A stretch of 64,000 nucleotides of DNA, taken from the IMG/VR virus record IMGVR_UViG_3300050821_009094, positions 1,544 through 65,543 of that record, one strand, 5' to 3'. Every line of letters starts with the position of its first letter. The stretch's first letter is position 1. The position numbers and the translations under genes were made by a program. The notes below the pieces were generated by a model that searched no databases, was not told where the DNA came from, and worked only from the letters and a program-made list of their open reading frames with translations. The DNA is from a virus (lineage: Duplodnaviria; Caudoviricetes). Below, in pieces: positions 3,281-17,463 of this stretch.

Positions 3281-3287
3281 TTTAGCC

Positions 3288-3527
3288 TCACTGGTTTCCT
3301 TGGTTGACTGGTTTAAAGGACACTATGCCACCCCACCAAAAATGACAGCACAAAAAGCCGGTAAGGAAGCCAGCAATCCATGGGAATGGAGGGAAATCGG
3401 CTGTAACAGTCCAGACGAAACGCGAGAGTGTCGAAGTATTCTCGTGCAGCGACCAGCCCTCCATGATTGAGAAACTGACCACAATCAGGAGCAACCAGAC
3501 TGCCCATTTGATACTGCCTTTCATCAT
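3288..3527 (-). CDS. small 2-TM membrane protein (second holin or antiholin candidate)
   Basis: 79 aa, two TM stretches, overlaps the endolysin stop. Confidence 0.6.
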   Translation of the reverse strand: MMKGSIKWAVWLLLIVVSFSIMEGWSLHENTSTLSRFVWTVTADFPPFPWIAGFLTGFLCCHFWWGGIVSFKPVNQGNQ

Positions 3528-4102
3528 GTCACTACCCCCGTTGAAGCCATTTTAAGCGCCTGCGTCCCGATCTCCTTCGACCGGCGAATCCAGTCAGTAC
3601 CGAAATACTTGAACGTTGTCAGTGAGCGGTAGTACGCCTCGCGCGCTGCGGTGAAAGCGTTGATCATGCCGGTTACGTTAGAGATGGCAGCAACTGCAGC
3701 ATCCGTCTGCGATCCCCACATACCATCGGCCGCAATGTTGAGGGAGCGCTGCAACAGGATCGTGGACCTGCGTGGCCCGGCGTTCACGTTCTCATCGAAC
3801 ACGCATAGATTAAAGCCAGCCGGCAGCTTGTCGCAATTGGGCTGCCAGTACGAATCTAGGTAGATCGTCTCGCCTTGTATCTGCGTGATCTTGCGCACAT
3901 CGACGATCGGCAAGCCTTGGGCTTTCAGCCACAGATCGTACTCGTTGCCGGTGATCCCGCATTGCGTCTCACCGCCGGGATCGTGCGGGTCATCGTCGAA
4001 ATTGCGCGGGTTGGACCAGTCGGCGGCCGTGCCAGTGTAGACGTTGCATTCCTGTTGCAACGTGAACGGCAGGCAGGCGAGGAAATTTTTAAGGTCAGCC
4101 AT
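3524..4102 (-). CDS. endolysin, glycoside hydrolase family 108 with C-terminal PG-binding region
   Basis: DDPHDPGGETQCGIT, FDENVNAGP, LQRSLNIAADGMWGSQT and FGTDWIRR motifs typical of GH108. Confidence 0.9.
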   Translation of the reverse strand: MADLKNFLACLPFTLQQECNVYTGTAADWSNPRNFDDDPHDPGGETQCGITGNEYDLWLKAQGLPIVDVRKITQIQGETIYLDSYWQPNCDKLPAGFNLCVFDENVNAGPRRSTILLQRSLNIAADGMWGSQTDAAVAAISNVTGMINAFTAAREAYYRSLTTFKYFGTDWIRRSKEIGTQALKMASTGVVT

Positions 4103-4214
4103 TTTTCCTCACCCACGCAGCGAAATGCTCGTTCTTCATGTGCTCATGCCATTGCTTCTCGGTCATCTGGCCGGACAAATAGCAGGCGAGGATGAGATCA
4201 TAGCGGTGGCTCAT
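4095..4214 (-). CDS. 39-aa hypothetical protein
   Basis: MSHRYDLILACYLSGQMTEKQWHEHMKNEHFAAWVRKNG; fills the gap, overlapping both neighbours. Confidence 0.55.
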   Translation of the reverse strand: MSHRYDLILACYLSGQMTEKQWHEHMKNEHFAAWVRKNG

Positions 4215-4411
4215 TTGGGCGCCTCACATTTAGCTTTCGCTTCGTCTAACTGCTTTTGCAAGTCGACGATTTGTTTGGCCTGGGCTTCGACTGTCAGCGC
4301 CCATTGAGCGATGACACCATTGATTGCCAGCGCGGTTTGCGACGGGGTGCGTTGCTCTTGCGCTAACGCCGGGGAGCTGAATAGTAAGGCCACGCCAATT
4401 AAGAATTTCAT
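4211..4411 (-). CDS. small secreted coiled-coil protein
   Basis: signal peptide MKFLIGVALLFSSPALA-Q. Confidence 0.7.
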   Translation of the reverse strand: MKFLIGVALLFSSPALAQEQRTPSQTALAINGVIAQWALTVEAQAKQIVDLQKQLDEAKAKCEAPK

Positions 4412-4418
4412 ATTTCAC

Positions 4419-5813
4419 CTAGCAGTGCGTGACGATGCCGTTGACGCTGGCGAAACTTGAAGTTGGCGACCCAGTGCAAGACAGACCAGTATGGGCGCCC
4501 ACAATAAAAGCCTGTCCTGTGACTACTCCCGTGGGACTAACCACAAATCCAGGCGTAAAGATCGCTGCGGTCGTGAATGTAGCGCTGCCCCATTGTAGCC
4601 CATAGCTGTGGGTTCCAGACGGGGCAAGCCACATATTCGTTGCGCTGCTGTTCGATTGAATATCGGCAGTGTTGATACTGGCAGCATAAAAAGCGAGGCC
4701 AACATCCCAGTATGCAACGAAATCTGCTGAACGTATTTCGACGCCGACGCCACCGTTATTGTGCCCTGTACCGCCATAGTAGGCCAGGTCAAGCCCGACA
4801 AAAAGATTTGGGGTGCCAACTGGATTAAACAGCGCCGGTGCCCCAGTTAAGTTCTGTATATCGCCACTGAGAAAAACAGCACCGTTGCCAACAGTCGTCG
4901 CTTCCGTCACCCCAAACATATCATAGCCGATATGACCTTGGTTGACATCGCCTGACTGTACCGACGCGGCGTAAAAAGCCACGTTGTCGTTCGTGGATCC
5001 CGTGCCGCTTGTGTTGGTGGTGACGAAAACTTTCAGCCCGTTTAATTGCTGGGTGTTGTTGGTGGTAGCGTCAATTCGCATCACTGAACCAAGCGAACCA
5101 TCGCCCGAACTCGTTCCATTGACGATGCTCTCGGTTCTGCTGATCTGTACGGTTGGCGTGTTGCCCGCAATAATCGGGTGCGCAGAACTGCCCGACTCGA
5201 TCAGCAATTCGTTTGGTGTATTGGCGGAAGGCAGCAGCGTGCTGTTCGGTCCAAGAATGGAGAATAGATCGGGGCTGACGACATTCGTACCCGAAAAGGT
5301 GTTGTTGCCCGTAAGCGTATTATTACCATCGAGAAGTACGAGATCACTTCCCAACACGCCCGAGTCGCTCAACAATGACCCAGATGTGTTGTTGAACAAG
5401 GCGACATCTCCTACTGTCGATGAAACCGGTCCAACAATTCCGCCAACGGTGTAGGGAAAATTATAAGTCGTGCCGTTGAGCACGATCGAGAACGGCTGTG
5501 GCGTGTCGGTGCCGAAATTCTGGATGACCAAGCTCACGCCGGTTGCGTCGCTGATGTTCCAACAGACCTGCTGATAGCCCGGCGCTGTCGGCGGTGCGGT
5601 ACTCTGGCAGATCGTCTGGCCTTGTCCGACCACGCCAAGGCTGGTCAGGAAGCCGTTAGCAGCGGTACCGGCGTCCTGGATGATGCCATTGGTCGTCCAG
5701 GATGCTGCGTGGCCCGGCGTGACGTTACCCGATTGTTTGACCGCATTACCGGTTTGACCAAGCGCCGGCAGGCACGTCGCCAGCAACAGAAAGACACTAA
5801 GGAAGCGGCTCAT
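4419..5813 (-). CDS. signal-peptide fibre/adhesin-like protein
   Basis: MSRFLSVFLLLATCLPALG-Q; G/S/T/N-rich; fibre-shaft-like GPVSSTVGDVALFNNTSG..DSG and NNTLTGNNTFSG; ends NGIVTHC. Confidence 0.75.
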   Translation of the reverse strand: MSRFLSVFLLLATCLPALGQTGNAVKQSGNVTPGHAASWTTNGIIQDAGTAANGFLTSLGVVGQGQTICQSTAPPTAPGYQQVCWNISDATGVSLVIQNFGTDTPQPFSIVLNGTTYNFPYTVGGIVGPVSSTVGDVALFNNTSGSLLSDSGVLGSDLVLLDGNNTLTGNNTFSGTNVVSPDLFSILGPNSTLLPSANTPNELLIESGSSAHPIIAGNTPTVQISRTESIVNGTSSGDGSLGSVMRIDATTNNTQQLNGLKVFVTTNTSGTGSTNDNVAFYAASVQSGDVNQGHIGYDMFGVTEATTVGNGAVFLSGDIQNLTGAPALFNPVGTPNLFVGLDLAYYGGTGHNNGGVGVEIRSADFVAYWDVGLAFYAASINTADIQSNSSATNMWLAPSGTHSYGLQWGSATFTTAAIFTPGFVVSPTGVVTGQAFIVGAHTGLSCTGSPTSSFASVNGIVTHC

Positions 5814-6288
5814 AGAACACCGTGATGTTGGCTGTTGCGGCTGCGCCCTGGGCGTTTTGCAGTTGGAAGTAGATCACGGTGTCCGAGAACACCATTGTAT
5901 CCTGACTGTTGATTGTCAGCGACTGAGCGTTATTGTTGGTATCGGCGTTCGGCGTCGTGATGGTGATGGCCGATCCGGCAGTGACGATCGCAACACCGCC
6001 TTGTTGGATACCGGTGAACACGCCGCACGTCGCCATGGTCAGTGCCGACGAAGACCCTGAGATAACGATTCGATCGCAGCGCCAGCGGGTGAACCCGACT
6101 GGCAGATTGATCAGGATCGGGTTGTCGAAGTTGGTTTGATTAAAGTTGACGTTGGTGATTGACTGCGAGAGCAACCCCTGGGTATTAAGCAGGATCGCGG
6201 TCCCGCCGTCGCCAACCACTTCATTGGTCGTCCAGACCGCCAGATGCCCTGGAGTAACCCTGCCTGACTGGAGAACCCGGTTGCTCAT
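5797..6288 (-). CDS. fibre-block protein without signal peptide, paralog of 12194..12745
   Basis: shares QSGxVxPGHLAxW, RWRC, ATCGVFTG, NAQSLTIN and VFYEPLP with 12194..12745. Confidence 0.8.
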   Translation of the reverse strand: MSNRVLQSGRVTPGHLAVWTTNEVVGDGGTAILLNTQGLLSQSITNVNFNQTNFDNPILINLPVGFTRWRCDRIVISGSSSALTMATCGVFTGIQQGGVAIVTAGSAITITTPNADTNNNAQSLTINSQDTMVFSDTVIYFQLQNAQGAAATANITVFYEPLP

Positions 6289-6301
6289 GGTTCGAGCTAT
6301 A

Positions 6302-7666
6302 TCACATATGGAACAAGCAGTGATAGACGAGTTTTGTGCCGCTGATTGAACCGCTGGTCACCGACCATCCCGTGTATGGGCTGGAACCAATGGGCGTAAC
6401 CGCAAGTCCTCCCGTGACGATGCAATCCGGCAATTGCAACCACGTTTGAGATTGGAACGTTACCGTACAGCCCGTAGCACCAGACCCCACGGTAATCGTA
6501 CCGCTGGTGTCGGTATCATTGGTATCGATGCTTGCTCCCGATCCGCATGAACTAACAGCAGGTGGTGACGCGCTCGGTGACTGGTTATAGGGGTAATGGG
6601 TAGCCAAACCCGACGCGGTGAAGTAGCCCTGAAAATTGGTGCCTTGATACACTAAACTCGACGCGACGGAACAGCCGGAAACGATTTGCTGTTTCATCAC
6701 GCCATTGTTGGCGCCCGCCAGGTTGGTGCTGCCGACCAGCCAATAGCACGGGCCGCCGACGCTACCAGTTATGGTATCGTACGACCCGAATGTGTTTATC
6801 CCGGTGCTGTCACCCCTGATAACGCCGGTCTGCCCGCCGCCGAGTATTGTACCCGATCCGATGAAATTGATCGTCGCGCCGTCATCCAGCCACTGCCCGC
6901 CGTTGAATATGTCAACGACTGATTGTGTAAGTCCGGTCCCAACCGTGATATTGGCGACGCCGGTAACAAAAACCTCGCCGCCGCCTTCAAGGTTGAAAAT
7001 ATCACGGCCGGATGACGGCCCAAAATTATTGGTGCCACTGAACTGGACCTTGGTGCCAGTCCACGCGCTCACGATATTGCAAACATAGGTCGCTTCACTG
7101 GTTGCGTTGGCGCTTATGCCGTGGAGATTATAATTGCCGGAGTAGAACAATAAGACTGCGCCATCGCCGCCCCAATCGCCCTTGTTGCAGGTCCCGTTCG
7201 GCGGCGAGATGACGACACTGGACGGCGATGCGTCGTTGCCGAAAATCTCTATCTGGCTGTAGCCATAATTGGCGTTGCAAGTGAAGCATTTCGGAAAGCC
7301 AATAGGCGATCCAAATTGTGGTGTCTCGGGATAGGTGCCATTGCCCGTGTATATTACGGCGCTGCCGACATTGAAACTCCAGAGCAGCGTCTGGTTCATA
7401 ATATAGAGAGCATTCTGGAGTGTCTTGCATGGCGCGGCGATCGTCAGACACGTATTTGAGTCGCTTCCTGCCTGACAGGTCGATCCACCGTTGACACCAC
7501 ACGGCGTCGTGCCACTGCCGGATGGGTTGACGTAAAGAGCGACATTGCCGGTAACCAGCGAGATCAGACTGGCGATGGCAGCACCCCGGATCCAGCCCGG
7601 CGCCACTTGCGGGACCAGAACAAGCGCAACCGCTGATGCAATTAGAAACGTTCGCAGTGCCTTCAT
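6302..7666 (-). CDS. signal-peptide beta-helix-like receptor-binding/depolymerase-like protein
   Basis: MKALRTFLIASAVALVLV leader; YVNPSG..GSDSNTCLT.AAPCKTLQNA..GNGTYPE motif typical of pectin-lyase-fold N-termini; 14 Cys. Confidence 0.7.
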   Translation of the reverse strand: MKALRTFLIASAVALVLVPQVAPGWIRGAAIASLISLVTGNVALYVNPSGSGTTPCGVNGGSTCQAGSDSNTCLTIAAPCKTLQNALYIMNQTLLWSFNVGSAVIYTGNGTYPETPQFGSPIGFPKCFTCNANYGYSQIEIFGNDASPSSVVISPPNGTCNKGDWGGDGAVLLFYSGNYNLHGISANATSEATYVCNIVSAWTGTKVQFSGTNNFGPSSGRDIFNLEGGGEVFVTGVANITVGTGLTQSVVDIFNGGQWLDDGATINFIGSGTILGGGQTGVIRGDSTGINTFGSYDTITGSVGGPCYWLVGSTNLAGANNGVMKQQIVSGCSVASSLVYQGTNFQGYFTASGLATHYPYNQSPSASPPAVSSCGSGASIDTNDTDTSGTITVGSGATGCTVTFQSQTWLQLPDCIVTGGLAVTPIGSSPYTGWSVTSGSISGTKLVYHCLFHM

Positions 7667-10600
7667 GGGATAACCTCGACGATTTGAGCATCGGCTGCAA
7701 GCGATACCGAAACCGATGACGTTGAGTGAGTTGTAGTTGGGGTGGTGCTGACTATGGGATCGTAGACGTTGACGGTCGTCGCCGTGATCGGCAGCGTTAC
7801 CGTAAGCGACGATGTGGAAGGTGTTACTTGGCTATGGGTTGTATCGTTCCATATCGTCGGTTCCTTCCAGATCACGATTTCCCATGTGCCATTTGATTTC
7901 TCCAGCAGCAAGGAATTGCCGCCGCCTGCCCCTGCCGCAGGCAACCCGGAAATCGAATAATTGAACTGGCCAGGCGTAAACGTTAGAGCCGTACCGCCGG
8001 TGTCATTGAGTATCGTGTAGGTGTTTTTTACCGCGGTGCCATTCACCTTAATGGTCGCCTGATCGCTCTGATAAAAACCGTAGTTATCGATGCAAGCACC
8101 ATCGCCGGTGTTGAAGTCAAAAAGTGTATAAAGCGTCGTGTAGGGAACGCCTGCGGTAAACATATCGAAATAGATATTCATCTCCAATCGCGCCTGCGTG
8201 GTCTGATCGACCGCGCCAGTCTGCGCCGAAGGCGTGCAATAGCCGCCCTCGGTTATGACAGTAGGCGCGCCAACAATCGGCTGGTTGGCCGGATTGAGCG
8301 CCGCCACCATCGTTGAGCCGACATAGGTCGTCGGCTGCGTGCCGCTGAATGGATAAAAATGGATGTTGTTGTAATTTGCCGTGCCGGCAATGCTCGGCGG
8401 CTGCGGCACCGTGTTGCCGAAGTAGCTGGTGTAATTTGCTACCTGGACGCCGGCCCCGGTCAGGGTCGCATCGGCTTGCGTGACGTTATAAATCAACGCC
8501 TGCCATAACAGACTGGAGGCCACCGATGCTTCGAGTTGCGCCAGCGGCGCGGCAGATGGGCCTGTGACGCCCTGTGCCGAGAACTGGATAAGATCGCCAC
8601 TTTTTACACCACCATTGATGGCGTTGGCGCTCATCGTCAGCGTGGTGCTGGTGGCTGATACGACCGTGGTGCCCGGCGCTATCGCCGGCAAAACGGCGGC
8701 AGCATTGAGCACAACGGCATCCGCTATGGCGCCGTTAGCATTGCCGGCGCCGGTCCCGATCGTGACCGACAATCCCGACTGGGTGGATGTGAATGTCTGG
8801 TATTCGTTAAGCGTGTAAAAGCCGTTGCCGAGCTGTGTATAACCCGAGCCGGCTGTTGGTGCCGCGGTCGAGGCCATGCGGAAACCGCCGAGAACAACCG
8901 TGTTGTTATGCGAAGTCGAGATGGTAAGAGGATCGGTTGTCCCCGTAATGGGGGAGCCATCGAAAGGCGACGACGTATTGCAATTGACAATTCCAACGAC
9001 ACCAGCCGCGACAAAACCGGGAGGATTGCTAAACGTAATGGTGTCGGTCTGAGGAAATCCACCGCTTGACGGTCCTATGGCATAGAATTCCTGCTCTGGC
9101 TGTCCTGTGCCGGCAGTTGCTCGCAACGCCCAGCTCAAACTCAAAGAATCGTTTACCGCAGAGATAGCGCCGGTATTTGTCGCCGTGAACGCCACCAGAC
9201 ACTCGTTCGGCGAGTTTATTGTAATGGGAACCTGAAAACCCGTACTGCAACTGGCACAAGAAAGATAGTTGCTCCCTGGATCAACGGTTTGAGAAACATC
9301 TGTTACCGTTATGCCGGTGCCGGCATTGACCGTTCCGGTCCCGCTGAGTGTAAAGCTGTAGTTGCCGACCGACTCGACTTCGGCAGGCGTTGCGGCGAAG
9401 TGCAGTACGGCGCTGCTGGTGGACGTGGTGTTGTTGGTGGTGCCAGTGTTGACATAGCAAATCGGGAAATTGTTGGTCTCGTTCGGTCCCTCGTTCGCCA
9501 GCATCTTGCCGGGGTAAGTGGTAACAAACGTATTCATCAAGGCAATGGATGCAGCCGCACCGGTTGACGCATTATCACAGTCAATGGTCGGAAAACTGAC
9601 CGGGCCGTTGATCCAAAGGAAATTAAACCTGACGTTATCGTTTGCTGCGAGATAATTATAATTGCCACCGCCGTCGCCTGGCGTCGGCATGACGGCGCGC
9701 GCTACCGTCATCCCCATATTCGACATCGCGGTTCCGGCTGCGGCGGCAGGTGTGCCAAGAGGATCAACAACGCCGACCGAATTGGTGAAGTTCTTGGCGC
9801 GTTGCGCCTGCGCTCCAATGGTGCAAGGCGAACTCCCAATGCCCCCGACTGCAATCAAATAATTGGCAAAGGCACCGCAGGTGTTTGAAACATCTTGGGC
9901 AGTCATTTGACTGCCCCAGAATGCCATGGCTACTATTGACGTGGAATCCGAGAATGCGCCGCCGGCGCCATAATAATTAAGCAGGTTTGCAGTACCAGTT
10001 CCAACGCTGTTCGAAGTAGAATTCGGCGAACCTATTGCAGTGTTGTTAAAATACAGCGTAGTTGCCGATACTCCGGTACGTACCGCAACGGCATAACCTG
10101 ACTGAGATGCTTCGGTTTCTTGATCGAATCCTAAACTATTGGAAAGTTGAGCAAGCAAAGTACCAGCGCCGGCATTGTTTTCCACCAATGCGTAGACAGC
10201 GGTATTAGCCGAGCCGCCTAGCATTATACCGCCGTTTGTTGGAGCAGTCCCCAACAACCAACCGCCGAGGCTGACACTGTTCTGCGTCAACTGAGTGCCG
10301 GAAGTAAATGAAACTCCGCTGGCTAAATAGCTGGTTGAACCATCCGAATTATAGCCTTCATTGGCTGTGAAAGTCGGCGAGTTGACCGCAGTCAAAGTTG
10401 CCGTGCCGGGATTTTTCCAATTGATCAGGGCCGACTGACTATCGGCTGCCGCCGGAACATAGAGGTAATCCATCTTCCCCCAAACATTCGATGGATTCGC
10501 CAAAAGTGCCGCAACCAGATTGTTGATCGCGGTTTTGTATGCTGTCGTTGGCGGGGTATTAAACGCTGCAAAAATTGCACACGATTGTGCGAGGTACGGA

Positions 10601-10704
10601 CAAACTGTGCCGGGCACAGTATGATTATAACTAGAATCACGACCAGGCGGCAGGCCGGTCCCACAAAGAAGAACAACAAGCAGTACCAGAAACGCGCGCT
10701 TCAT
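7663..10704 (-). CDS. large exported multidomain protein: LamG-like N-terminal domain plus clan GH-A-like glycoside hydrolase with inserted beta domains
   Basis: start MKRAFLVLLVVLLC at 10704 (TGATG overlap); EGPNE, HFYP and ITEGGY motifs fit GH-A acid/base and nucleophile positions. Confidence 0.7.
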   Translation of the reverse strand: MKRAFLVLLVVLLCGTGLPPGRDSSYNHTVPGTVCPYLAQSCAIFAAFNTPPTTAYKTAINNLVAALLANPSNVWGKMDYLYVPAAADSQSALINWKNPGTATLTAVNSPTFTANEGYNSDGSTSYLASGVSFTSGTQLTQNSVSLGGWLLGTAPTNGGIMLGGSANTAVYALVENNAGAGTLLAQLSNSLGFDQETEASQSGYAVAVRTGVSATTLYFNNTAIGSPNSTSNSVGTGTANLLNYYGAGGAFSDSTSIVAMAFWGSQMTAQDVSNTCGAFANYLIAVGGIGSSPCTIGAQAQRAKNFTNSVGVVDPLGTPAAAAGTAMSNMGMTVARAVMPTPGDGGGNYNYLAANDNVRFNFLWINGPVSFPTIDCDNASTGAAASIALMNTFVTTYPGKMLANEGPNETNNFPICYVNTGTTNNTTSTSSAVLHFAATPAEVESVGNYSFTLSGTGTVNAGTGITVTDVSQTVDPGSNYLSCASCSTGFQVPITINSPNECLVAFTATNTGAISAVNDSLSLSWALRATAGTGQPEQEFYAIGPSSGGFPQTDTITFSNPPGFVAAGVVGIVNCNTSSPFDGSPITGTTDPLTISTSHNNTVVLGGFRMASTAAPTAGSGYTQLGNGFYTLNEYQTFTSTQSGLSVTIGTGAGNANGAIADAVVLNAAAVLPAIAPGTTVVSATSTTLTMSANAINGGVKSGDLIQFSAQGVTGPSAAPLAQLEASVASSLLWQALIYNVTQADATLTGAGVQVANYTSYFGNTVPQPPSIAGTANYNNIHFYPFSGTQPTTYVGSTMVAALNPANQPIVGAPTVITEGGYCTPSAQTGAVDQTTQARLEMNIYFDMFTAGVPYTTLYTLFDFNTGDGACIDNYGFYQSDQATIKVNGTAVKNTYTILNDTGGTALTFTPGQFNYSISGLPAAGAGGGNSLLLEKSNGTWEIVIWKEPTIWNDTTHSQVTPSTSSLTVTLPITATTVNVYDPIVSTTPTTTHSTSSVSVSLAADAQIVEVIP

Positions 10705-12197
10705 CAGATCGAGTATCCCCACGCCGTTACTGAAACTACGCCGCCGGTGCTTGCAGCCGACGAAATGACGGCAATCGAGGTTGATACGGCACTCGCCGGA
10801 ATGCAGGGGCTAAATACTTCCTCGGTAACACCTAACCCGGAAGCATTCGGCGCGGTCCACTGCGTGAAATTAAGTGTTCCTGTCACAGTGCCCGTCACCG
10901 TCGCATTGCCGGTCACAGCCGCGGTTGCGTTGGCGCGGATAGAGAAGCCACAAATATACGTCAAATGCCCGGATACGTTGGTCAGCGTCGCCGTCGTCGC
11001 CGCAGTCGTGCCGGTAGTAGAGGCCGTGATGGGCACGGCAGTTGCCGGATATGGGCTGATCGAGTCGACCGCACCGATGTTTACCGTATGCGATACTTGT
11101 GCCGGGATCGGTTGCCCGGTATTGGTCGCAATCGCCGCAAGTGAAGAATTGCCGGTCGTCTGCAGCGCTGCAGTCGCCGCCGATCCAAGCGTGGTGTTGA
11201 TCGTGCCGAGCGAGGTGTTGATAGTGGTCAGCGTCGAGTTGCCGGTGGTCTGCAGCGATGAAGTTGAGGCACCGGTTGGCAACGGAAATGCCGACGCGAT
11301 ACTGACCGGTTGCGTGGTGGCAGAGGCATCGACCAGCAGCGCATTTCCGACCGTGACATTGGCCGAATTGCTGCCCTGATGGATCGTCATCAACCAGGGC
11401 GACGTGTTTGGGGTATTGCCCGGCTGTACCGTCCAGGTGCCCGACTCAGTCGCCGGGAAGGTACCGCCCGTGCCGGTCGTTAAGATCGCCGTGCCATTGG
11501 CCCCGGTGTTGGCCAGACTGACCTGCGCAGGAGAAGCCGCAGTACCGATCTCAGCACCAGCCGCGGTGCGCAAATTGACCATGCCAGCGCGATAGGCTGT
11601 CATCTGCCATGCACCGGTCTGGCCCGTCGTCAAGGGATTGGAGGTCGCCGTGGTCTGGAACACGCCGCCGGCAGGGGTCAGCGCCGTGGTGCCGAACGTG
11701 AACGCGGACTCGTCCACAACCGCCGTACCGCCCGAGCCGGCGCAGCCGGTCACGCAGTTGACGATCAGGCGCCCCGAGGCGTCGAGCTGCAACCCCTCGA
11801 ACTGACCAGTCGAAGGACTGGGCAGTGACGAGTTGTACACGCCGCCAATGAACAGTCCCTTGGCCGGGGCGGTAGCACCTGGCGCGACTTGTACGGCAAT
11901 CTGATTAGCTGCTGTTCCCGCTCCAGTCGGTAACGGCCACGACACAGCACTGACAGGCTGGGTCGTGGTGCCTGTCGGGTCAGTACGCAGGGGGGCGCCA
12001 GCAGTGGCGACTTCGGTGCCGGACGAGTTTTCCAGCACCATGGCGGTGTAATATGGCCCGGAGCCGAAGATCTGGATCAAGAAGGTATTGAGGGCCGCGT
12101 CCTTGTAGGTGTAGGTCGTGGATGCCGCTAGCGCCACCTCCACCGTTACGGCCAGAAACAGAGCGGCGCCGGCCGCGATCTTCTGCAAGCGGGTCAT
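10704..12197 (-). CDS. signal-peptide Thr/Ala-rich fibre-like protein
   Basis: likely start MTRLQKIAAGAALFLAVTVEVALA-A overlaps the upstream stop; repeats TQPVS..PLPTGA and ALQTTGNSSL. Confidence 0.75.
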   Translation of the reverse strand: MTRLQKIAAGAALFLAVTVEVALAASTTYTYKDAALNTFLIQIFGSGPYYTAMVLENSSGTEVATAGAPLRTDPTGTTTQPVSAVSWPLPTGAGTAANQIAVQVAPGATAPAKGLFIGGVYNSSLPSPSTGQFEGLQLDASGRLIVNCVTGCAGSGGTAVVDESAFTFGTTALTPAGGVFQTTATSNPLTTGQTGAWQMTAYRAGMVNLRTAAGAEIGTAASPAQVSLANTGANGTAILTTGTGGTFPATESGTWTVQPGNTPNTSPWLMTIHQGSNSANVTVGNALLVDASATTQPVSIASAFPLPTGASTSSLQTTGNSTLTTINTSLGTINTTLGSAATAALQTTGNSSLAAIATNTGQPIPAQVSHTVNIGAVDSISPYPATAVPITASTTGTTAATTATLTNVSGHLTYICGFSIRANATAAVTGNATVTGTVTGTLNFTQWTAPNASGLGVTEEVFSPCIPASAVSTSIAVISSAASTGGVVSVTAWGYSI

Positions 12198-12745
12198 GGC
12201 ATACCTAGTGGTTGTGAGTCGGGAGTGCCTGTGGGTGGCGGGGGTACGATGGTGGCGGACAAGGGTAGTGGCTCGTAGAACACGTTGACGTCGGCATAGG
12301 CCGCGTTGCCTTGCGGGGTTTGCAGACGGAAGTAGATGGCCGTATCCGACAATGCTTCGGTATTCTGGTTGTTGATCGTGAGCGACTGGGCGTTGTCGTC
12401 GGTATCGATCATGTTCGTCGTGATGGTAATCGCCGTGCTGCCGGACACGATCGCGGTGCCGGTCCCGCCGACACCTGTGAACACACCGCACGTTGCCGTG
12501 CTGAGATTGCCGGATGGGTTGGAAAGCACGATGCGGGAGCAACGCCAACGGCCATAGGTTGCCGGCAGCTTGATGAGAATGAGGTTATCGACGTTGGCCT
12601 GGTTGAAGTTGACTGCCTTGATGGTGGACAGAAATTTGGCGTAGGTGTTAACAATTGTAACCCCGGCATCATCAATCACGCCATCGGTCAACCAGGCCGC
12701 CAAATGACCTGGCACGACGCTGCCACTTTGCAGAATTTGGTTCAT
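12194..12745 (-). CDS. fibre-block protein without signal peptide, paralog of 5797..6288
   Basis: MNQILQSGSVVPGHLAAWLTDG...VFYEPLP. Confidence 0.8.
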   Translation of the reverse strand: MNQILQSGSVVPGHLAAWLTDGVIDDAGVTIVNTYAKFLSTIKAVNFNQANVDNLILIKLPATYGRWRCSRIVLSNPSGNLSTATCGVFTGVGGTGTAIVSGSTAITITTNMIDTDDNAQSLTINNQNTEALSDTAIYFRLQTPQGNAAYADVNVFYEPLPLSATIVPPPPTGTPDSQPLGMP

Positions 12746-12978
12746 TTATCAGCCGGTTTAGGCGCTTCTTCAGATTTTACCTGCGCCGCTGCCTTCACGC
12801 GCGTCTGCCAGTTGACGCACCACGTCGCGATATAGGCGGTTACCGCAATATCGACGGTCGGCGATTTGGCCGCCAGCGCACACATCGAGGCAATATTGTT
12901 CTGATCCTCGTCGGTGACGGGAAAAGGAGCGGCGAAGGCCGTTGATGTTAGAACTAAAAGCGCGACGATTGTTTTCAT
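12742..12978 (-). CDS. small secreted protein with two Cys
   Basis: MKTIVALLVLTSTAFA-APF. Confidence 0.7.
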   Translation of the reverse strand: MKTIVALLVLTSTAFAAPFPVTDEDQNNIASMCALAAKSPTVDIAVTAYIATWCVNWQTRVKAAAQVKSEEAPKPADK

Positions 12979-14543
12979 AATGCTGAAAATCCCGATGGTG
13001 GGCTATAGAACGGCGAGGCACCCGAATAAGTGAAAGAACCTCCAGCGTAATTTAGCCCCAAAGCCGCATAGATTGTGTAACTGCCGCTCCATGTCAGCCA
13101 CGGGTTGGCACCAGTCGCTGGATTGCCGCTCGCGCCCCACACATTGTTGATGCCGAGCCACGCTTTTTTCGCGTCCGCATCAAACGCAATCATGATCCGG
13201 TCGCCGAGTCCCGGCGTTATCGTCACCGCATTTGCAATGGTGAAGCCCGTAATATTCGGTGTGCCGCCTGATGCTACGCTGTTGGCATAGGTGCCAAGAT
13301 CGAAACTGAGTGGCATGTATTGCAACTGCGTATCATCACAAATGCCATAGCTGTATGCCGCCCCCGTTCCAGCAACCAAAAATTCGAAATACCATTTGCC
13401 GGTTGACTTGCCGATCAGGGAACGAGCCACGTTCTCTATTGCGCCGGTCGGATTCGATGTAGCCGTAAGGTTGCTGTTCGACAGCGTAAATATGGGCGTA
13501 GCAGTGAGATTATCGAGCGTGTCCGGCAACGTGGTGAGCGTTGCCGTCATCGCCTTGAATATGTAAGGCCCTTGTCCTAGCGTGCCTGTTGGGGCAATGC
13601 GGACATCGTAGGCAGTGGCCGCCGAAAGTCCCGTCAGCAGAACAGAGGGATTGCGCGACGCGGTATGAGAGAACGATGTCCAGCTTCCAGAGCCGTGAAC
13701 GGCGTATTGAATTGAATAATCCGAATAATATCCGCCGGAACTGGGAAACGACCACGACAACGCAATCGAAATGTTTTTGGTTGCTCCTTGCTGGATATTG
13801 AAAACAGAACCGGGGGTTACCGCACCAGCAATCAGGCTGTTAATGGTCGCCGCGTACATGCACTCCATGTATGTCTGACCAAGATTGGTCGGGTGAGTGC
13901 CGTCGCTGAATAGGTTTGTGAACAGCGATATTCCGGGGATGCCTACCGACGCGCTGCTGCCGTAGTCAATCAAGGCATCGCAGTGCGTCGGGACCAATGC
14001 AGAAATGGCGGCATTGAGCGTTGCCCGCCATGTCTCATGGGCTTGATCGCTATCGAAATCGGTTAAAGTCGAAACTACAGCATAGGTAAAACCCCCAGAT
14101 TTAACGCTGTCACACACCCCACCGATGGCTGTGGCAAGACCTGCAGCATTGTTTGGATAGTAGGTTGCGTTGCTTGAGTCATTGACCCCAATCAGAATCG
14201 TATAGATGTATTTGCTAAAACCTGGGTTTGAACTGATAAGAGCAATGTCGGATGACTCGCGCGAGACAGGTCCAGCAACCCCATCGCCGGAGTGGCCATT
14301 ATTCTGCAAAGTAACCAGCGACGTATTCGGAGCATACAAATTAGGATAGCTGGTGACTCCCGTGGCACCGTGATTTTGAGTGATGCTGTCGCCTTCGGCT
14401 ACAATGAAGGTGCTGCTGGCGGTCGGAGCGACGTGGCACGGACATGTGCCGCAGTTGTCAATGAAGAAAACTTGCGAGGATGATTTACTATAGAATAGCG
14501 CCGCACAAGCAACAGCAAGCGCGGCTATCACAAACTTTCGCAT
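12975..14543 (-). CDS. exported SGNH/GDSL esterase plus FN3 plus SPRY-like domain protein
   Basis: signal peptide; GDSIT, GVND and DGTHP SGNH blocks; LSW..Y.IQY..LTGLSAATAYDVRI (FN3); GKWYFEF (SPRY-like). Confidence 0.85.
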   Translation of the reverse strand: MRKFVIAALAVACAALFYSKSSSQVFFIDNCGTCPCHVAPTASSTFIVAEGDSITQNHGATGVTSYPNLYAPNTSLVTLQNNGHSGDGVAGPVSRESSDIALISSNPGFSKYIYTILIGVNDSSNATYYPNNAAGLATAIGGVCDSVKSGGFTYAVVSTLTDFDSDQAHETWRATLNAAISALVPTHCDALIDYGSSASVGIPGISLFTNLFSDGTHPTNLGQTYMECMYAATINSLIAGAVTPGSVFNIQQGATKNISIALSWSFPSSGGYYSDYSIQYAVHGSGSWTSFSHTASRNPSVLLTGLSAATAYDVRIAPTGTLGQGPYIFKAMTATLTTLPDTLDNLTATPIFTLSNSNLTATSNPTGAIENVARSLIGKSTGKWYFEFLVAGTGAAYSYGICDDTQLQYMPLSFDLGTYANSVASGGTPNITGFTIANAVTITPGLGDRIMIAFDADAKKAWLGINNVWGASGNPATGANPWLTWSGSYTIYAALGLNYAGGSFTYSGASPFYSPPSGFSAL

Positions 14544-14546
14544 GGC

Positions 14547-16262
14547 CTACCGGACCTTGCGTTTGAGTTGCTCGATTTCGGCTTGTTGCTCTTGCAGCGC
14601 CTTTACTAGAACCGGCACGACGCCTAGATAGTCAAAGGTGTTGGGTTGGCCTTGGTCGTCAAGACCGGCGAGTTTCGGAAGCACCTTGATGCCCTGCTCG
14701 GCTGTGAACCCATAAAGCAATTTGTCCGGATCACCATGATCGGAATTTAGCTTGTACTTTACCGGCTCCAATTTCATGATCTCGGCCAGCCCAACGTCTA
14801 AATCACCAATATCATGCTTGTACCGCGTGCTCGACGTGCCGAGGCAAATTCCCAGAGTGCCCGATCCAGAATAGAACGCATGGCTCGTAGTATCTTCACA
14901 TACCGTCGCGTCGGTATGCGTTGCGTCGCTGCTAATCTGCGGAAGTTCAAATAAACCGGCGGAAGTAATCACAGCCAAATTGCTACCGTTGTTGACAAGA
15001 AATGTGAACCCGCCAGACGCACCTGGTGCGTTGAAGTAAACCGTGTTGTTCATCCCTGCTGTCTGTATCAAAGCGGTCGAAGTCGTGAAGGTACTTTCTC
15101 CAAGCCAGAGCGCGTAATAGCTATTCGCAATGACGTTCGGCGACGACACCGCGAAAACTGGCGTATAGCCACCACCAGCAAGTTGTGACGACATCACCAA
15201 ATTGCTGCCGACGCGCGTCACCACACCTTGAACCGGCTGATTCTCGATGATCCAATCCACTTCGTTCGTAGCCGCTGTGGCGGTCGTGTTCCAAGCCTGC
15301 CCGCTAAGACGCAACCGGGGCGACCATTGCTGCGCACCGGAAGCAGCCGCGGTTGTGTTGGTCAGCACATAACCGTCAGTCGAGGTCGCACCGATGCTTT
15401 GTGTATTGATCTCATGGCTGGCAGTATAAGTGATGCCACTTGTTGCCTGTATTACTGATCCATCCGTATAAAGCAGGTTACCCGCGCTGCCGCCGCTGAC
15501 GGTGGTTGAATTGATCGTAAGGCCGCCACCGCTCTGCGCCACGCAGGCGGGCAAACCGCCAGAAGCGCCGAGGACATTCGTTCCGGTGCAAACCGCAAGC
15601 CGCGTCAGTACGCCGGATGAATTCCGATAGTAGAGGTCGCCAGTGGCATCAGACCCCAGCGTCATGGTGACGCCGCCGATCACGTCCGAGGTATTGTTCA
15701 ACGTAACCGATGTCGGCGTTCCGAGAATGGGCGTGACCAGCGTCGGCGACGTGGCATAGACCAGATTGCCGCTGCCGGTCGTGCCGAACGTTCCTGCGCC
15801 AACGGTCTGATAATTGGTGCCGTCCGATACCACGCGGTAGCACTGGCCCTTAATGATCGGCAGCGTCGCCGCGCCATTGATGGTCGAAGTCGCGGGGGTT
15901 AGCGTCTGCGTGCCGGCGCCGATATTGCAGATGTCAGCGTACCAGTTCGCAGCGAAGTTACCGCCAGTGCCAGCTTGAGCAATCGTTGGAATTTGGGCCG
16001 ACCCATTGGATAGATCGACTAGCTTGCCGCAATCGGTATTGTTGATCGGGTAATTGGCGCCGGTCTGCAGATTCACCACTTCAGCCGTTGAAATCGTTCC
16101 GGTCGTCGTGATTGGACTCGGGCTTACTACACCAGCGCAGCCTGCGGATATGCTGGTGACGGTGCCGGAACCGCCACCAGAACTTCCTCCCGGCAACACA
16201 ATCTGGGCATTTGCAGGTGTGATAAAACAAAGCGCAAAGCAAACTGCAAGAATCTTGCGCAT
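14547..16262 (-). CDS. tail fibre with C-terminal intramolecular chaperone (peptidase S74-like) and N-terminal signal peptide
   Basis: MRKILAVCFALCFITPANA-Q; ATSPTLVTPILGTP fibre motif; SSTRYKHDI..L.PVKY..GFTAEQ..DY..VPVLVKALQEQQAEIEQLK. Confidence 0.85.
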   Translation of the reverse strand: MRKILAVCFALCFITPANAQIVLPGGSSGGGSGTVTSISAGCAGVVSPSPITTTGTISTAEVVNLQTGANYPINNTDCGKLVDLSNGSAQIPTIAQAGTGGNFAANWYADICNIGAGTQTLTPATSTINGAATLPIIKGQCYRVVSDGTNYQTVGAGTFGTTGSGNLVYATSPTLVTPILGTPTSVTLNNTSDVIGGVTMTLGSDATGDLYYRNSSGVLTRLAVCTGTNVLGASGGLPACVAQSGGGLTINSTTVSGGSAGNLLYTDGSVIQATSGITYTASHEINTQSIGATSTDGYVLTNTTAAASGAQQWSPRLRLSGQAWNTTATAATNEVDWIIENQPVQGVVTRVGSNLVMSSQLAGGGYTPVFAVSSPNVIANSYYALWLGESTFTTSTALIQTAGMNNTVYFNAPGASGGFTFLVNNGSNLAVITSAGLFELPQISSDATHTDATVCEDTTSHAFYSGSGTLGICLGTSSTRYKHDIGDLDVGLAEIMKLEPVKYKLNSDHGDPDKLLYGFTAEQGIKVLPKLAGLDDQGQPNTFDYLGVVPVLVKALQEQQAEIEQLKRKVR

Positions 16263-16768
16263 TATTCATAATCCGCTGAGATGTACCCCGTGTCAGTCCC
16301 GGTCGTATAAGTGAACGGCGTGGTTGCCGAAGTCATCAAAATGACAATTCCAGTACCATACGCGACGGTGCCATTGATGTGTGCCAACGAGCAGCCGCGC
16401 GCTGTCGTATCGAAATAGCAAACATCAAGAACTGCCGCGCCCGTCAAAGCCCCCGTGCTTGGCGCCGATGCTGCATTATAAGCAATACAGTAACCTGCAG
16501 CACCACCTGTGATCGCCGTGCAATTAAACCCTGCCAGATCACCTGCCGCAGCTTTGACGACAAGAGATGTACCTAAACTTGTCGTAACCGCATGACTTAA
16601 AACCACTGCTGAAGCAGCGGCGGAAGTCGGAAATAAGTTCGTGGTATTGCACGGGACGTAGCGATTTGCACCCGCTGTTCCAGTATCGCAGTAAACGACA
16701 ACGGGAGTTTGTGCATCGACTAAGGTTGGTGTCAGCAGGATGGCGAGAAAGACGAGGATCTTAATCAT
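16262..16768 (-). CDS. signal-peptide small beta protein with 6 Cys
   Basis: MIKILVFLAILLTPTLVDA-Q; overlaps the upstream stop. Confidence 0.75.
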   Translation of the reverse strand: MIKILVFLAILLTPTLVDAQTPVVVYCDTGTAGANRYVPCNTTNLFPTSAAASAVVLSHAVTTSLGTSLVVKAAAGDLAGFNCTAITGGAAGYCIAYNAASAPSTGALTGAAVLDVCYFDTTARGCSLAHINGTVAYGTGIVILMTSATTPFTYTTGTDTGYISADYE

Positions 16769-17040
16769 CTCATTCTCACCAGCCAGCACGCGGTCAGAAC
16801 GAACAGCGCGTAGATCGTCAGCGAGACGATCTGGAACACGTCGGGTTTTGGCGTGAGGTACCAGAGCCAGAACGCGGAGCCTACGGCGGGCACCGCGAAC
16901 AGCGCCGGCATGGCCGCAAGCGCACGCTTCGACAGGGCGCCAAGCCCCATCATTAGCATGGTCATGCCGGCGTCAGTGCCGGACTTGGTTTCGGATTCTT
17001 CAGTTTCGGGAACGACTTCGAGTTTGAACGGCTCTGCCAT
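16765..17040 (-). CDS. 2-TM membrane protein
   Basis: two hydrophobic helices in the C-terminal half. Confidence 0.7.
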   Translation of the reverse strand: MAEPFKLEVVPETEESETKSGTDAGMTMLMMGLGALSKRALAAMPALFAVPAVGSAFWLWYLTPKPDVFQIVSLTIYALFVLTACWLVRMR

Positions 17041-17254: not shown

Positions 17255-17463
17255 TGTTTACCGGTCATAGGGATAGCGTGCCGCTTAAGCTGATCTATTG
17301 CTGTCGCAAGCAACGCAGGCCCATCAGGGTCTGGATATAGCACCATGCAAAGGGCTGTTACAAGAATCGCAAATCTTTCGCTGGGCGCTGTATCAGCAAG
17401 TGATTCGACTATTTCTTGTGCTGTTTTAGCGCAATTTTCTGATCGCGTTATAAAATTGGTCAT
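17251..17463 (-). CDS. hypothetical protein
   Basis: coupled ORF within the operon. Confidence 0.55.
   Translation of the reverse strand: MTNFITRSENCAKTAQEIVESLADTAPSERFAILVTALCMVLYPDPDGPALLATAIDQLKRHAIPMTGKQ

What the first reader, a model, noticed from the sequence alone, without database searches (positions are those of the whole stretch)
4211..16768. Fibre block of Sec-exported, Cys-paired proteins: a possible periplasmic arm of virion assembly
Seen: the block between the ejection genes and the lysis cassette is where tail fibres normally lie. Here 8 of 10 consecutive genes start with a basic-hydrophobic signal-peptide-like leader (starts 16768, 16262, 14543, 12978, 12197, 10704, 7666, 5813); 4411 is a ninth just downstream. 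Hand counts of Cys in the predicted mature chains are mostly even (6, 8, 7, 2, 4, 12, 14, 4). I see no Cys in the 977- and 530-aa ejection proteins and one in the capsid protein. The cargo is typical of receptor-binding proteins: S74-chaperoned fibre, SGNH esterase, beta-helix, glycoside hydrolase, LamG/SPRY/FN3. Established: tailed phages assemble in the reducing cytoplasm and their fibres normally lack signal peptides. Inference: this phage exports its appendages for DsbA-dependent folding and attaches them when the inner membrane fails at lysis. Alternatively it deploys them on or from the infected cell.
Basis: partly seen in the sequence, partly recalled or inferred. Interest (0 to 1): 0.93.

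Follow-up and report, generated by a model that had tools for sequence, protein, structure and literature searches.

The report
Phage tail fibres carrying export signals
A soil phage and about forty uncultured relatives put secretion signals and paired cysteines on most of their tail-fibre-type proteins, which suggests that part of the virus particle is folded outside the cytoplasm, something not described for tailed phages.

Summary
The window is nearly all of a complete 65.5-kb podovirus-like phage genome. Between the ejection-protein genes and the lysis genes lie 11 tightly coupled minus-strand genes, and 9 begin with a signal-peptide-like leader.

The pattern is not chance and not a start-codon artefact:
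- All starts are ATG and overlap or abut the previous stop.
- In 27 related IMG/VR loci, 0 of 168 core-gene ORFs carry such a leader, against 39 of 87 fibre-zone ORFs.

The best-studied protein, J (4419-5813), belongs to a family with a leader, a conserved ~130-aa N-domain and swappable C-terminal parts.
- 51 of 59 unique N-domains follow a leader and 8 do not.
- The conserved Cys pair is present in 47 of 51 leader-bearing forms and 0 of 8 leaderless forms. This argues for real export and oxidative folding.
- In several relatives the leader-bearing or leaderless ortholog sits between the adaptor and nozzle genes, inside the tail module. This argues that they are virion fibres.

Attachment to virions after the holin opens the inner membrane remains inference. 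The main rival is display or release off the virion, as with the Bdellovibrio MAT fibres, which share the architecture. Seven full-text searches found no paper on the phenomenon. Interest is high.

The parts
16262..16768 (-). A: 168-aa protein. 19-aa leader ending VDA before Gln; 6 Cys in the mature chain.
   Evidence: Homologs in L001 and L004 keep a leader and the Cys-bearing mature N-terminus. No Pfam, PHROG or NCBIfam family.
14547..16262 (-). B: 571-aa fibre. Leader ending ANA before Gln; C-terminal Peptidase_S74 intramolecular chaperone; 8 mature Cys.
   Evidence: Pfam PF13884, 36.3 bits against cut-off 22, residues 477-531. phrog_8443 tail fiber protein, 1.5e-07. S74 fibres with leaders also occur in L007, L010 and L029.
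12975..14543 (-). C: 522-aa GDSL/SGNH-type esterase with an FN3-like middle and an unassigned C-terminal domain. Leader with a weak c-region; 7 mature Cys.
   Evidence: Lipase_GDSL_2, 38.9 bits against 32.9. fn3, 23.9 against 25, below cut-off. A GDS motif is seen in the translation.
12742..12978 (-). D: 78-aa protein with a leader ending AFA; 2 Cys.
   Evidence: No family.
12194..12745 (-). E: 183-aa leaderless mini-fibre. The N-terminal QSGxVxPGH motif starts at residue 6, followed by a jelly-roll tip domain.
   Evidence: The tip domain has 958 representative relatives at E<=1e-3. E is a paralog of I.
10704..12197 (-). F: 497-aa protein with a leader ending ALA; 4 mature Cys.
   Evidence: A segment is shared with a 570-aa protein of L021.
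7663..10704 (-). G: 1013-aa protein with a leader. No canonical lipobox (Leu at -1 of Cys14); 12 mature Cys.
   Evidence: phrog_26223 (unknown function), 6.1e-17 on residues 37-241. Homologs in L002, L005 and L006 keep a leader.
6302..7666 (-). H: 454-aa Cys-rich protein (14 Cys) with a leader that has a weak c-region. Its N-terminal Cys-rich module recurs as an internal module of J-type fibres.
   Evidence: blastp matches to P0006-P0009 and P0017.
5797..6288 (-). I: 163-aa leaderless mini-fibre. Motif at residue 7, then a jelly-roll tip. It is the usual upstream partner of the J-type gene.
   Evidence: AF2 model at pLDDT 88.6. Best PDB matches are generic jelly rolls, E about 1e-3.
4419..5813 (-). 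J: 464-aa fibre. 19-aa leader (ALG before Gln), then the motif, a conserved ~130-aa N-domain with the Cys69-Cys84 pair, and a variable C-terminal part.
4211..4411 (-). K: 66-aa protein with a leader ending ALA before Gln and a helical, charged body with 1 Cys. It may belong to the lysis genes instead.
   Evidence: No family.
16765..17040 (-). Conserved 91-aa small membrane protein directly upstream of the distal fibre locus.
   Evidence: Homologs hold the same position in L017, L022, L023, L026-L029, L043, L044 and L049.
27114..28809 (-). Two paralogous SU10-type adaptor genes (27114-28064, probable start 28037; and 28027-28809). They are the candidate docking partners of the motif-bearing fibres.
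   Evidence: PF24175 SU10_adaptor, 36.4 bits against 27. In relatives a motif-bearing fibre gene follows directly.
23749..26655 (-). 968-aa nozzle-like tail protein.
   Evidence: Position and conservation. The name is an inference from gene order.
17460..21986 (-). 977-aa and 530-aa ejection-type proteins; both have 0 Cys.
1491..4102 (-). Lysis region. Leaderless GH108 endolysin (3524-4102), holin-like 79-aa protein (3288-3527), 49-aa leader-bearing protein (2808-2957), 271-aa OMP-like beta-barrel with leader (1935-2750), and a 147-aa membrane protein (1491-1934).
   Evidence: Glyco_hydro_108, 61.7 bits. phrog_315 endolysin. Atlas OMP_b-brl clusters, score 0.95..

Best explanation
The leaders are genuine Sec (signal peptidase I) signal peptides on tail-fibre or receptor-binding-type proteins of a lytic, SU10-adaptor-type podophage of a Gram-negative soil host.

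Proposed course, with my odds for each step:
1. Late in infection these proteins are translocated unfolded into the periplasm. The leader is cut, often leaving an N-terminal Gln. The proteins fold there with disulfide bonds (about 0.9).
2. They are homologous to, and interchangeable with, cytoplasmic virion fibres (about 0.85).
3. The capsid, tail and the small leaderless fibres E and I assemble in the cytoplasm. When the holin opens the inner membrane for the leaderless endolysin, periplasm and cytoplasm mix while the outer membrane still holds. The mature fibres then dock by their N-terminal motif and domain onto the adaptor region of finished particles (about 0.5).

Shown: the leaders, their conservation, the link between leader and cysteines, the fibre modules and the synteny. 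Inferred: export itself, the disulfides, and above all post-holin attachment.
For: (1) Leaders and starts. Uncharged runs are 13-18 residues, too short for membrane anchors.

(2) Family-wide restriction to the fibre zone. 0 of 168 core-zone ORFs of at least 100 aa carry a leader, against 39 of 87 fibre-zone ORFs. This is in the 27 of 47 loci that held both a core gene and a J-type gene. L004/L017 are the same contig and L025/L026 are near-identical.

(3) All six relatives found through the 977-aa protein (51-82% identity) have leader-bearing genes in the block, although the mature parts differ.

(4) J-type family. 51 of 59 unique N-domains follow a leader. The -3 Ala and +1 Gln are at least 90% conserved in alignment A1. 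The motif lies 3-8 residues after the predicted cut, or 4-16 residues from Met in leaderless forms. So the mature N-termini are equivalent.

(5) Leader and cysteines go together.
- The Cys69/Cys84 pair is present in 47 of 51 leader forms and 0 of 8 leaderless forms.
- Domain Cys counts are even in 46 of 51 leader forms. Leaderless forms have 0 (seven cases) or 1 (one case).
- An extra C-x9-C pair inside the motif occurs in 7 of 51 leader forms, 0 of 8 leaderless forms, and in none of the 10 leaderless I-type partners.
- In the unrelated set of 143 tip-domain proteins, those with a leader have even rather than odd Cys counts 21 to 5, against 41 to 52 without (Fisher 0.0015).

(6) Virion link.
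- Motif-bearing fibre genes lie directly after an adaptor gene and before the nozzle gene in L034 and L037 (with leader), L024, L041/L042 and L057 (without), and L016 (one of each).
- In L023, L026, L029 and L043 a leader-bearing J-type gene is the first large gene after the ejection genes.

(7) Modules of B, H, E and I recur as C-terminal parts of J-type fibres.

(8) The endolysin has no leader or SAR-like N-terminus. It therefore needs a hole-forming holin. That step rests on established lysis biology.
Against: - No virion data exist for any member. The family has no cultured representative.
- The leaderless E- and I-type proteins carry the same motif. They could be the only fibres on the particle.
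- Seven of the nine leader-bearing proteins in the window (A, B, C, D, F, G, H) lack the docking motif. How they would attach is unknown.
- The architecture of signal peptide, conserved ~130-aa beta-rich N-domain, trimeric fibre, then S74 or beta-sandwich tip is exactly that of the Bdellovibrio MAT fibres. Those are cell-surface adhesins (PMC10769870).
- A Sec leader takes a protein only to the periplasm. Capture after membrane failure has no precedent in tailed phages and would compete with dilution.
- The leader-cysteine link rests on few independent events: 3 label changes on the best tree, of which supported branches force only 1.
- E and I, which have no leader, also hold a Cys pair. Virion disulfides can also form without export, as in a siphovirus tail tube (PMC13576161; only the abstract start in the listing was seen).
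- C, G and H have non-canonical cleavage regions.
- All leader calls come from a home-made heuristic, not a trained predictor.
Confidence: 0.45

Rival explanations
1. The proteins are exported but stay off the virion. The phage secretes a set of fibre-like adhesins and enzymes into the envelope of the infected cell. They either act there or are displayed or released as free trimers at lysis, like the Bdellovibrio MAT fibres. Acting there could mean stripping or masking receptors, removing acyl groups from polysaccharide or wall, blocking superinfection, or stopping progeny from sticking to debris. The particle itself would carry only the leaderless E/I-type fibres and the nozzle.
For: - The architecture is the same as in MAT surface fibres (PMC10769870, passages).
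- Leaderless motif-bearing proteins accompany the leader-bearing one in at least 10 phages. They could suffice as fibres.
- C is an esterase.
- A, B, C, D, F, G and H have no recognisable docking motif.
- Leader-bearing non-virion genes in tail-fibre regions are known, for example lambda Lom (PMC12309495, passage).
Against: - The N-domain and motif are shared with leaderless orthologs that sit between the adaptor and nozzle genes. Leader-bearing orthologs occupy the same slot in L034, L037 and L016.
- A conserved N-terminal part with swapped C-termini is the pattern of particle-anchored receptor-binding proteins.
- There is no known route across the outer membrane.
- 12.5 kb, about 19% of the genome, would be spent on non-structural cargo.
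- No integrase was seen among the proteins scanned, so expression from a lysogen is unlikely. Not every ORF was scanned.
Confidence: 0.33
2. Dual fate. The leaders are weak or are overwhelmed late in infection. An unexported cytoplasmic pool is built into particles in the ordinary way, while the exported pool acts in the envelope or as free depolymerase.
For: - C, G and H have poor c-regions.
- From recalled general knowledge, phage depolymerases are known in both particle-bound and free forms.
Against: - The conserved Cys pairs and even Cys counts are specific to leader-bearing forms. This indicates that the oxidising compartment is where the functional form folds.
- A retained hydrophobic leader directly before the N-terminal motif would probably block docking (inference).
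- No conserved internal start lies between leader and motif in J.
Confidence: 0.12
3. Artefact. The leaders are not translated because the true starts lie downstream, or they are hydrophobic N-termini with no export role.
For: - No trained predictor and no proteomics were available.
- The heuristic also fires on some spurious antisense ORFs at low scores.
Against: - All starts are ATG and coupled to the upstream stop. Downstream starts would leave gaps of 60-200 nt in a gap-free operon.
- The n-h-c pattern is kept while the sequence diverges in 51 of 59 J-type proteins.
- The -3 and +1 positions are conserved.
- There are 0 of 168 such leaders in core genes.
Confidence: 0.04

Closest known systems
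Podovirus tail fibres and tailspikes with a conserved N-terminal particle-binding part and swappable C-terminal parts, including S74-chaperoned ones (T7 gp17, K1F endosialidase; recalled knowledge, with K1F and T5 cited in PMC10769870)
   Same: - Gene position after the ejection proteins, or next to the adaptor and nozzle genes.
- A conserved N-terminus with mosaic C-termini.
- The Peptidase_S74 domain of B.
- Jelly-roll tips.
   Different: - Those fibres have no signal peptide and fold in the cytoplasm.
- Here 9 of 11 genes carry leaders, and the leader-bearing forms have conserved Cys pairs.
- No sequence match to any isolate in the INPHARED collection.
Bdellovibrio bacteriovorus MAT (mosaic adhesive trimeric) fibres (PMC10769870; passages read)
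   Same: - Signal peptide, then an invariant beta-rich N-domain of about 130 aa.
- Then a trimeric fibre with exchangeable tips, ending either in S74 or in a beta-sandwich.
   Different: - MAT fibres are encoded by a bacterium. They are located at the predator surface or vesicle and are not part of a virion.
- Homology between the two N-domains could not be tested. No MAT N-terminal sequence could be reached with the tools, and NCBIfam gave nothing.
- The phage genes sit in a tail module and have leaderless orthologs.
Filamentous phage (Inoviridae) coat proteins such as pIII and pVIII (recalled knowledge; the general point appears in the abstract of PMC4823517, listing)
   Same: Virion proteins are made with Sec-type leaders, cleaved, and for pIII disulfide-bonded in the periplasm before joining the particle.
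   Different: - A different virus realm and morphology.
- Assembly by extrusion through the envelope without lysis.
- No cytoplasmic capsid.
Leader-bearing accessory genes in or beside tail-fibre regions: lambda Lom (PMC12309495, passage); T5 Llp and Cor (recalled)
   Same: Signal-peptide proteins encoded among tail-fibre genes. The window's 271-aa OMP-like gene (1935-2750) fits this kind.
   Different: - Those are small outer-membrane proteins or lipoproteins with no fibre modules.
- They are not a run of large modular fibre proteins.

Membership tests
Sec / signal peptidase I secretory signal peptide | Positively charged n-region without net acidic charge | tested here: met
   All nine leaders have 1-2 Lys/Arg in the first 2-6 residues.
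Sec / signal peptidase I secretory signal peptide | Hydrophobic h-region shorter than a membrane span | tested here: met
   Uncharged runs of 13-18 residues in all nine.
Sec / signal peptidase I secretory signal peptide | Small residues at -3 and -1 within a few residues of the h-region | tested here: inconclusive
   Canonical in A, B, D, F, J and K (6 of 9). Weak in C, G and H. Across J-type homologs the -3 Ala and +1 Gln are at least 90% conserved.
Sec / signal peptidase I secretory signal peptide | Call by a trained predictor, and experimental export and cleavage | not testable with these tools
Lipoprotein (signal peptidase II) signal | Lipobox with Gly/Ala/Ser at -1 of an invariant Cys | tested here: not met
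   Only G has a Cys near the end of the h-region, and it has Leu at -1.
Tat signal | Twin-arginine motif in the n-region | tested here: not met
   None of the nine window leaders has consecutive Arg.
S74-chaperoned phage fibre or spike (protein B) | C-terminal Peptidase_S74 domain above the Pfam cut-off | tested here: met
   36.3 bits against 22, residues 477-531 of 571.
S74-chaperoned phage fibre or spike (protein B) | Catalytic Ser/Lys, self-cleavage and trimer formation | not tested
   The residues were not inspected against the profile, and no trimer model was made.
SGNH/GDSL hydrolase (protein C) | Pfam GDSL family above cut-off, with the GDS block | tested here: met
   Lipase_GDSL_2, 38.9 bits against 32.9. 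GDS is seen near residue 50 in the translation. The other catalytic blocks were not checked.
Virion tail fibre of an SU10-adaptor-type podophage (J-type, E/I-type) | Gene in the tail module or at the post-ejection fibre locus | tested here: met
   Adaptor, then fibre, then nozzle in L016, L024, L034, L037, L041/L042 and L057. Distal locus in the window and most others.
Virion tail fibre of an SU10-adaptor-type podophage (J-type, E/I-type) | Conserved N-terminal part with mosaic C-terminal parts | tested here: met
   Alignment A1, the sequences and module sharing.
Virion tail fibre of an SU10-adaptor-type podophage (J-type, E/I-type) | Physical presence on the particle, bound to adaptor or nozzle | not testable with these tools
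   Needs particle proteomics or cryo-EM. There is no cultured member.
Bdellovibrio MAT fibre family | Signal peptide + ~130-aa conserved beta-rich N-domain + fibre + S74 or beta-sandwich tip | tested here: met
   The architecture of J-type proteins matches the description in PMC10769870.
Bdellovibrio MAT fibre family | Sequence or fold homology of the N-domain; cell-surface location | not testable with these tools
   No MAT N-domain sequence or model was reachable. The location of the phage proteins is unknown.

The most novel reading that the evidence does not exclude
A large family of soil podophages builds its particle in two compartments. The head, tail and a small leaderless fibre assemble in the cytoplasm. 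Most receptor-binding fibres and spikes are Sec-exported, cleaved and disulfide-bonded in the periplasm. They snap onto the adaptor ring only in the seconds between holin triggering and outer-membrane rupture. That would be a periplasmic arm of tailed-phage morphogenesis. It could also give each burst a mixed set of fibre complements.
Probability: 0.42. Interest if true: 0.95.

Novelty: new variant of a known kind. Interest (0 to 1): 0.82.

Why it matters
Textbook morphogenesis of tailed phages takes place entirely in the cytoplasm. If receptor-binding proteins of a widespread soil phage family mature in the periplasm, several things follow:
- Particle assembly would depend on the host's Sec, signal peptidase and Dsb systems, which would be new host factors and new routes to resistance.
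- Fibres could use disulfide-stabilised folds suited to soil.
- Lysis timing would become part of assembly.

There are practical consequences as well.
- Pipelines that discard signal-peptide proteins as non-structural, or that score them as secreted auxiliary enzymes, would misfile host-range determinants in soil viromes.
- Heterologous production of such fibres would need periplasmic expression.

If the proteins instead stay off the particle, a phage-encoded secretome of MAT-like adhesive fibres is still a new kind of phage-host interaction.

Tried and rejected
- Near-identity and protein searches of the INPHARED phages. Megablast of 17460-40000 and of the block found no match. tblastn of J and E found no match. 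The portal matched only two uncultured records at 25% identity. No annotated relative was available.
- Structure of full-length J from alignment A1: pLDDT 49.6, with only residues ~70-120 above 80. The BFVD Foldseek search on it gave nothing at E<=0.001, so it was not used.
- Structure of I: a good model, but PDB Foldseek gave only generic jelly rolls at E about 1e-3. The fold class is noted and no function is drawn from it.
- Complex prediction of the 307-aa adaptor (A2) with J residues 20-160 (A1): verdict 'no answer', score 0.00 against a mark of 0.32. It counts neither for nor against binding.
- The look-up of sequencing runs: no RNA holder listed. The one full holder is a soil metagenome that may be the source. 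The other rows hold small shares that I did not lay.
- Host. The genome-contig scan with A1 gave 3 metagenome-assembled contigs, and binning of phage contigs is unreliable. The OMP-like gene points to Pseudomonadota only through Atlas cluster taxa.
- Link to Bdellovibrio MAT fibres. I tried to reach a Bdellovibrio genome through relatives of G001 with PF13884. 4 of 61 genomes had a single match each, and none had many S74 genes. I dropped this route.
- NCBIfam: 0 families for 10 of 10 proteins.
- Pfam at E up to 5 added nothing for A, F, G, H or J.
- P0100 relatives in IMG/VR. By eye, most of the 27 matched ORFs are ordinary leaderless fibres and a few (L080, perhaps L071 and L082) start with leader-like stretches. 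Their context was not followed up.
- Similarity of the I and J motifs within a phage compared with between phages: 0.596 against 0.562, permutation p 0.04, n=10. This is too weak to use.
- A D-E frameshift fusion was considered and not pursued, because the pattern is not general in relatives.
- Literature. Seven full-text searches found no paper describing Sec signal peptides on tail fibres of tailed phages. An eighth search located the MAT fibre paper, PMC10769870. Passages were read in 10.64898/2026.09.13.751334, PMC10791045, PMC12309495, PMC13507307, PMC10769870 and PMC3517404. Supplements were closed and not seen. The MAT supplementary tables may list the N-domain sequences.

Full report
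WHAT THE WINDOW IS

The window is bases 1544-65543 of a single 65,543-bp contig. The contig ends repeat exactly over 97 bp, so this is a complete, circularly assembled phage genome. It encodes:
- a terminase-like protein, and a portal 25% identical to portals of two uncultured phages;
- two SU10-type adaptor paralogs (PF24175, 36.4 bits against 27);
- a 968-aa nozzle-like protein and Cys-free 530- and 977-aa ejection-type proteins;
- a leaderless GH108 endolysin;
- its own replication genes: a family A polymerase, a primase-polymerase and an SNF2 helicase.

Nothing in the INPHARED collection resembles it at DNA level. The only full holder among public runs is a soil metagenome.

THE OBSERVATION

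Between the ejection genes and the lysis genes lie eleven minus-strand genes, which I call A to K (coordinates under parts).
- Nine (A, B, C, D, F, G, H, J, K) begin with a basic-hydrophobic leader. E and I do not.
- All eleven starts are ATG and are coupled to the previous stop. The next in-frame starts outside the leaders lie 20-68 codons downstream.
- The uncharged runs are 13-18 residues, which is signal-peptide length rather than membrane-span length.
- Six leaders end in canonical small-x-small sites. C, G and H are weaker.
- A conservative automated count gives 7 of 10 block ORFs against 5 of 68 elsewhere. Four of those five lie in the neighbouring lysis genes or the small membrane protein.

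S74 on B and GDSL on C are confirmed. The other cargo labels are not.

CONSERVATION

The 977-aa protein retrieved six IMG/VR contigs at 51-82% identity. In all six, the genes after it start with leaders although the mature parts differ.

J has 42 database relatives. They share a leader, a 25-residue motif (QSGxVTPGH...W...G...D.G), a conserved N-domain of about 130 aa, and unrelated C-termini (alignment A1).

A pattern scan with A1 found 41 IMG/VR loci, mostly on contigs of 62-67 kb. So this is a large uncultured phage family. In the 27 of 47 loci that held both a core gene and a J-type gene, 0 of 168 core-zone ORFs carry a leader by my heuristic, against 39 of 87 fibre-zone ORFs. That set includes two duplicate pairs, and I saw false negatives.

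IS EXPORT REAL?

Among 59 unique J-type N-domains, 51 follow a leader and 8 do not. Sequences without the motif in their first 150 residues, or with fewer than 110 residues after it, were dropped before this count.

In leaderless forms the motif begins 4-16 residues from Met. In leader forms it begins 3-8 residues after the predicted cut. The mature N-termini are therefore equivalent, which only makes sense if the leader is removed.

The cysteines follow the leader:
- The pair corresponding to Cys69/Cys84 of J is present in 47 of 51 leader forms and 0 of 8 leaderless forms.
- Cys counts in the domain are even in 46 of 51 leader forms. Leaderless forms have 0 or 1.
- Seven leader forms have an extra C-x9-C pair inside the motif. 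No leaderless form has it, nor does any of 10 leaderless I-type partners.

An independent check used the 150 best representatives of the E/I tip-domain family. Seven that did not start with Met were dropped, leaving 143. Among those with any Cys, leader-bearing proteins have even against odd counts 21 to 5. Leaderless ones have 41 to 52 (Fisher 0.0015).

Caveats. On the tree the leader state changes only about 3 times, and supported branches force only 1. The Fisher value of 2e-7 is therefore not phylogenetically independent. E and I, without leaders, also hold one Cys pair each.

ARE THEY VIRION PARTS?

Three lines point that way.
1. Modules. These are B's S74 and shaft segments, H's Cys-rich N-terminal module, and the jelly-roll tip of E and I (AF2 pLDDT 88.6). 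All recur as C-terminal parts of J-type proteins in relatives.
2. Synteny. In L034 and L037 a leader-bearing J-type gene lies directly after the adaptor gene. In L034 it also lies before the nozzle gene. Leaderless orthologs occupy the same slot in L024, L041/L042 and L057. L016 has, in order: an adaptor, a leaderless fibre, a second adaptor, a leader-bearing fibre, another leader-bearing protein, and the nozzle.
3. Minimal members. In L023, L026, L029 and L043 the leader-bearing J-type gene is the first large gene after the ejection genes.

Against this, in at least 10 phages a small leaderless motif-bearing protein (I-type) lies immediately upstream of the leader-bearing one. It could be the only true fibre. 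Some relatives also have a further leaderless fibre-like gene after the nozzle.

MECHANISM

I commit to Sec export, cleavage and oxidative folding of fibre-type proteins (about 0.9).

With about even odds, I also commit to docking onto finished particles once the holin has opened the inner membrane. The endolysin has no leader. By established lysis biology it therefore needs holin lesions, which join cytoplasm and periplasm before the outer membrane fails. That step is inference.

The main rival is that the exported proteins stay off the particle and act in, on or from the envelope.

COMPARISON WITH WHAT IS KNOWN

Classical podovirus fibres share the position, the modularity and the S74 domain, but lack leaders.

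The closest architectural match is the Bdellovibrio MAT family. It has a signal peptide, an invariant ~130-aa beta-rich N-domain thought to bind a surface element, a trimeric fibre, and S74 or beta-sandwich tips (PMC10769870; passages read). Those are cell-surface adhesins. Homology of the N-domains could not be tested here.

Filamentous phages export their coat proteins but belong to a different world. Lambda Lom shows that leader-bearing accessory genes can sit among fibre genes (PMC12309495, passage).

A soil-prophage CAZyme survey reports signal peptides on 5% of prophage CAZymes and treats them as secreted auxiliary enzymes, after excluding tail fibres (PMC13507307, passages).

Seven full-text searches found no description of leader-bearing tail fibres in tailed phages. 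An eighth was the one that located the MAT paper.

VERDICT

Export is strongly supported, fibre identity well supported, and virion attachment open.
- The finding is a new variant of a known kind, tail fibres and receptor-binding proteins. There is a 0.42 chance that it reveals a categorically new two-compartment assembly route.
- Interest 0.82.

Noticed in passing
window 1935-2750 (-): A 271-aa outer-membrane beta-barrel-like protein with a leader sits inside the lysis region (Atlas OMP_b-brl clusters, score 0.95). Homologs hold the same place in L003, L004, L022, L036 and L050. It could be a Lom-like accessory gene or part of outer-membrane disruption.
   Followed up: partly
window 16765-17040 (-): A 91-aa protein with an acidic N-terminus and hydrophobic stretches lies directly upstream of the distal fibre locus. 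It is conserved in at least ten relatives. Its role is unknown; it could be a holin-like protein, an exclusion protein or a fibre-assembly helper.
   Followed up: partly
window 39450-46177 (-): A cluster of sugar-modification-type genes lies just upstream of the terminase. It holds an FkbM methyltransferase (39450-40361), a TPR protein (40775-42223), an NAD-dependent epimerase/dehydratase (42406-43416) and two unassigned proteins. It might glycosylate virion proteins or modify the host surface.
   Followed up: no
genome contig ends (outside and inside the window; window end 64000): The first and last 97 bases of the 65,543-bp contig are identical, so the genome is complete with a unique length of 65,446 bp.
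   Followed up: yes
window 12194-12745 and 5797-6288 (-): The jelly-roll tip domain of E and I has 958 representative relatives at E<=1e-3 in metagenomes. It usually sits at the extreme C-terminus of proteins of 150-1500 aa. It has no tblastn match in 50,697 isolate-phage records.
   Followed up: partly
proteins P0050, P0097, P0100, P0130, P0154, P0162, P0179, P0180: A second set of tip-domain proteins has a leader followed by a different conserved N-terminal motif (roughly PxxLPxxxVxGRL). Leader-bearing fibre families may therefore be plural.
   Followed up: no
L023 19601-20008, L026 14971-15372, L027 16773-17276, L028 16007-16468: Relatives encode small leader-bearing proteins whose mature part is very rich in His and Arg. 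They lie downstream of the lysis genes.
   Followed up: no
L016 1734-3965: In this metagenome-assembled contig the capsid-protein homolog is a 743-aa ORF, about twice the usual length. This suggests a fusion with the following gene or a large insertion.
   Followed up: no
window 58556-58789 (+): A 77-aa ORF in the replication region begins with a canonical leader ending AYA before Gln. It is the only leader-like start on the coding strand outside the fibre and lysis regions, apart from a doubtful ORF at 30282-30746.
   Followed up: no
L007 9317-10348 and L010 403-3462: Unrelated IMG/VR contigs also carry S74-domain proteins (343 and 1019 aa) that start with leaders. The trait is therefore not confined to this phage family.
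   Followed up: partly
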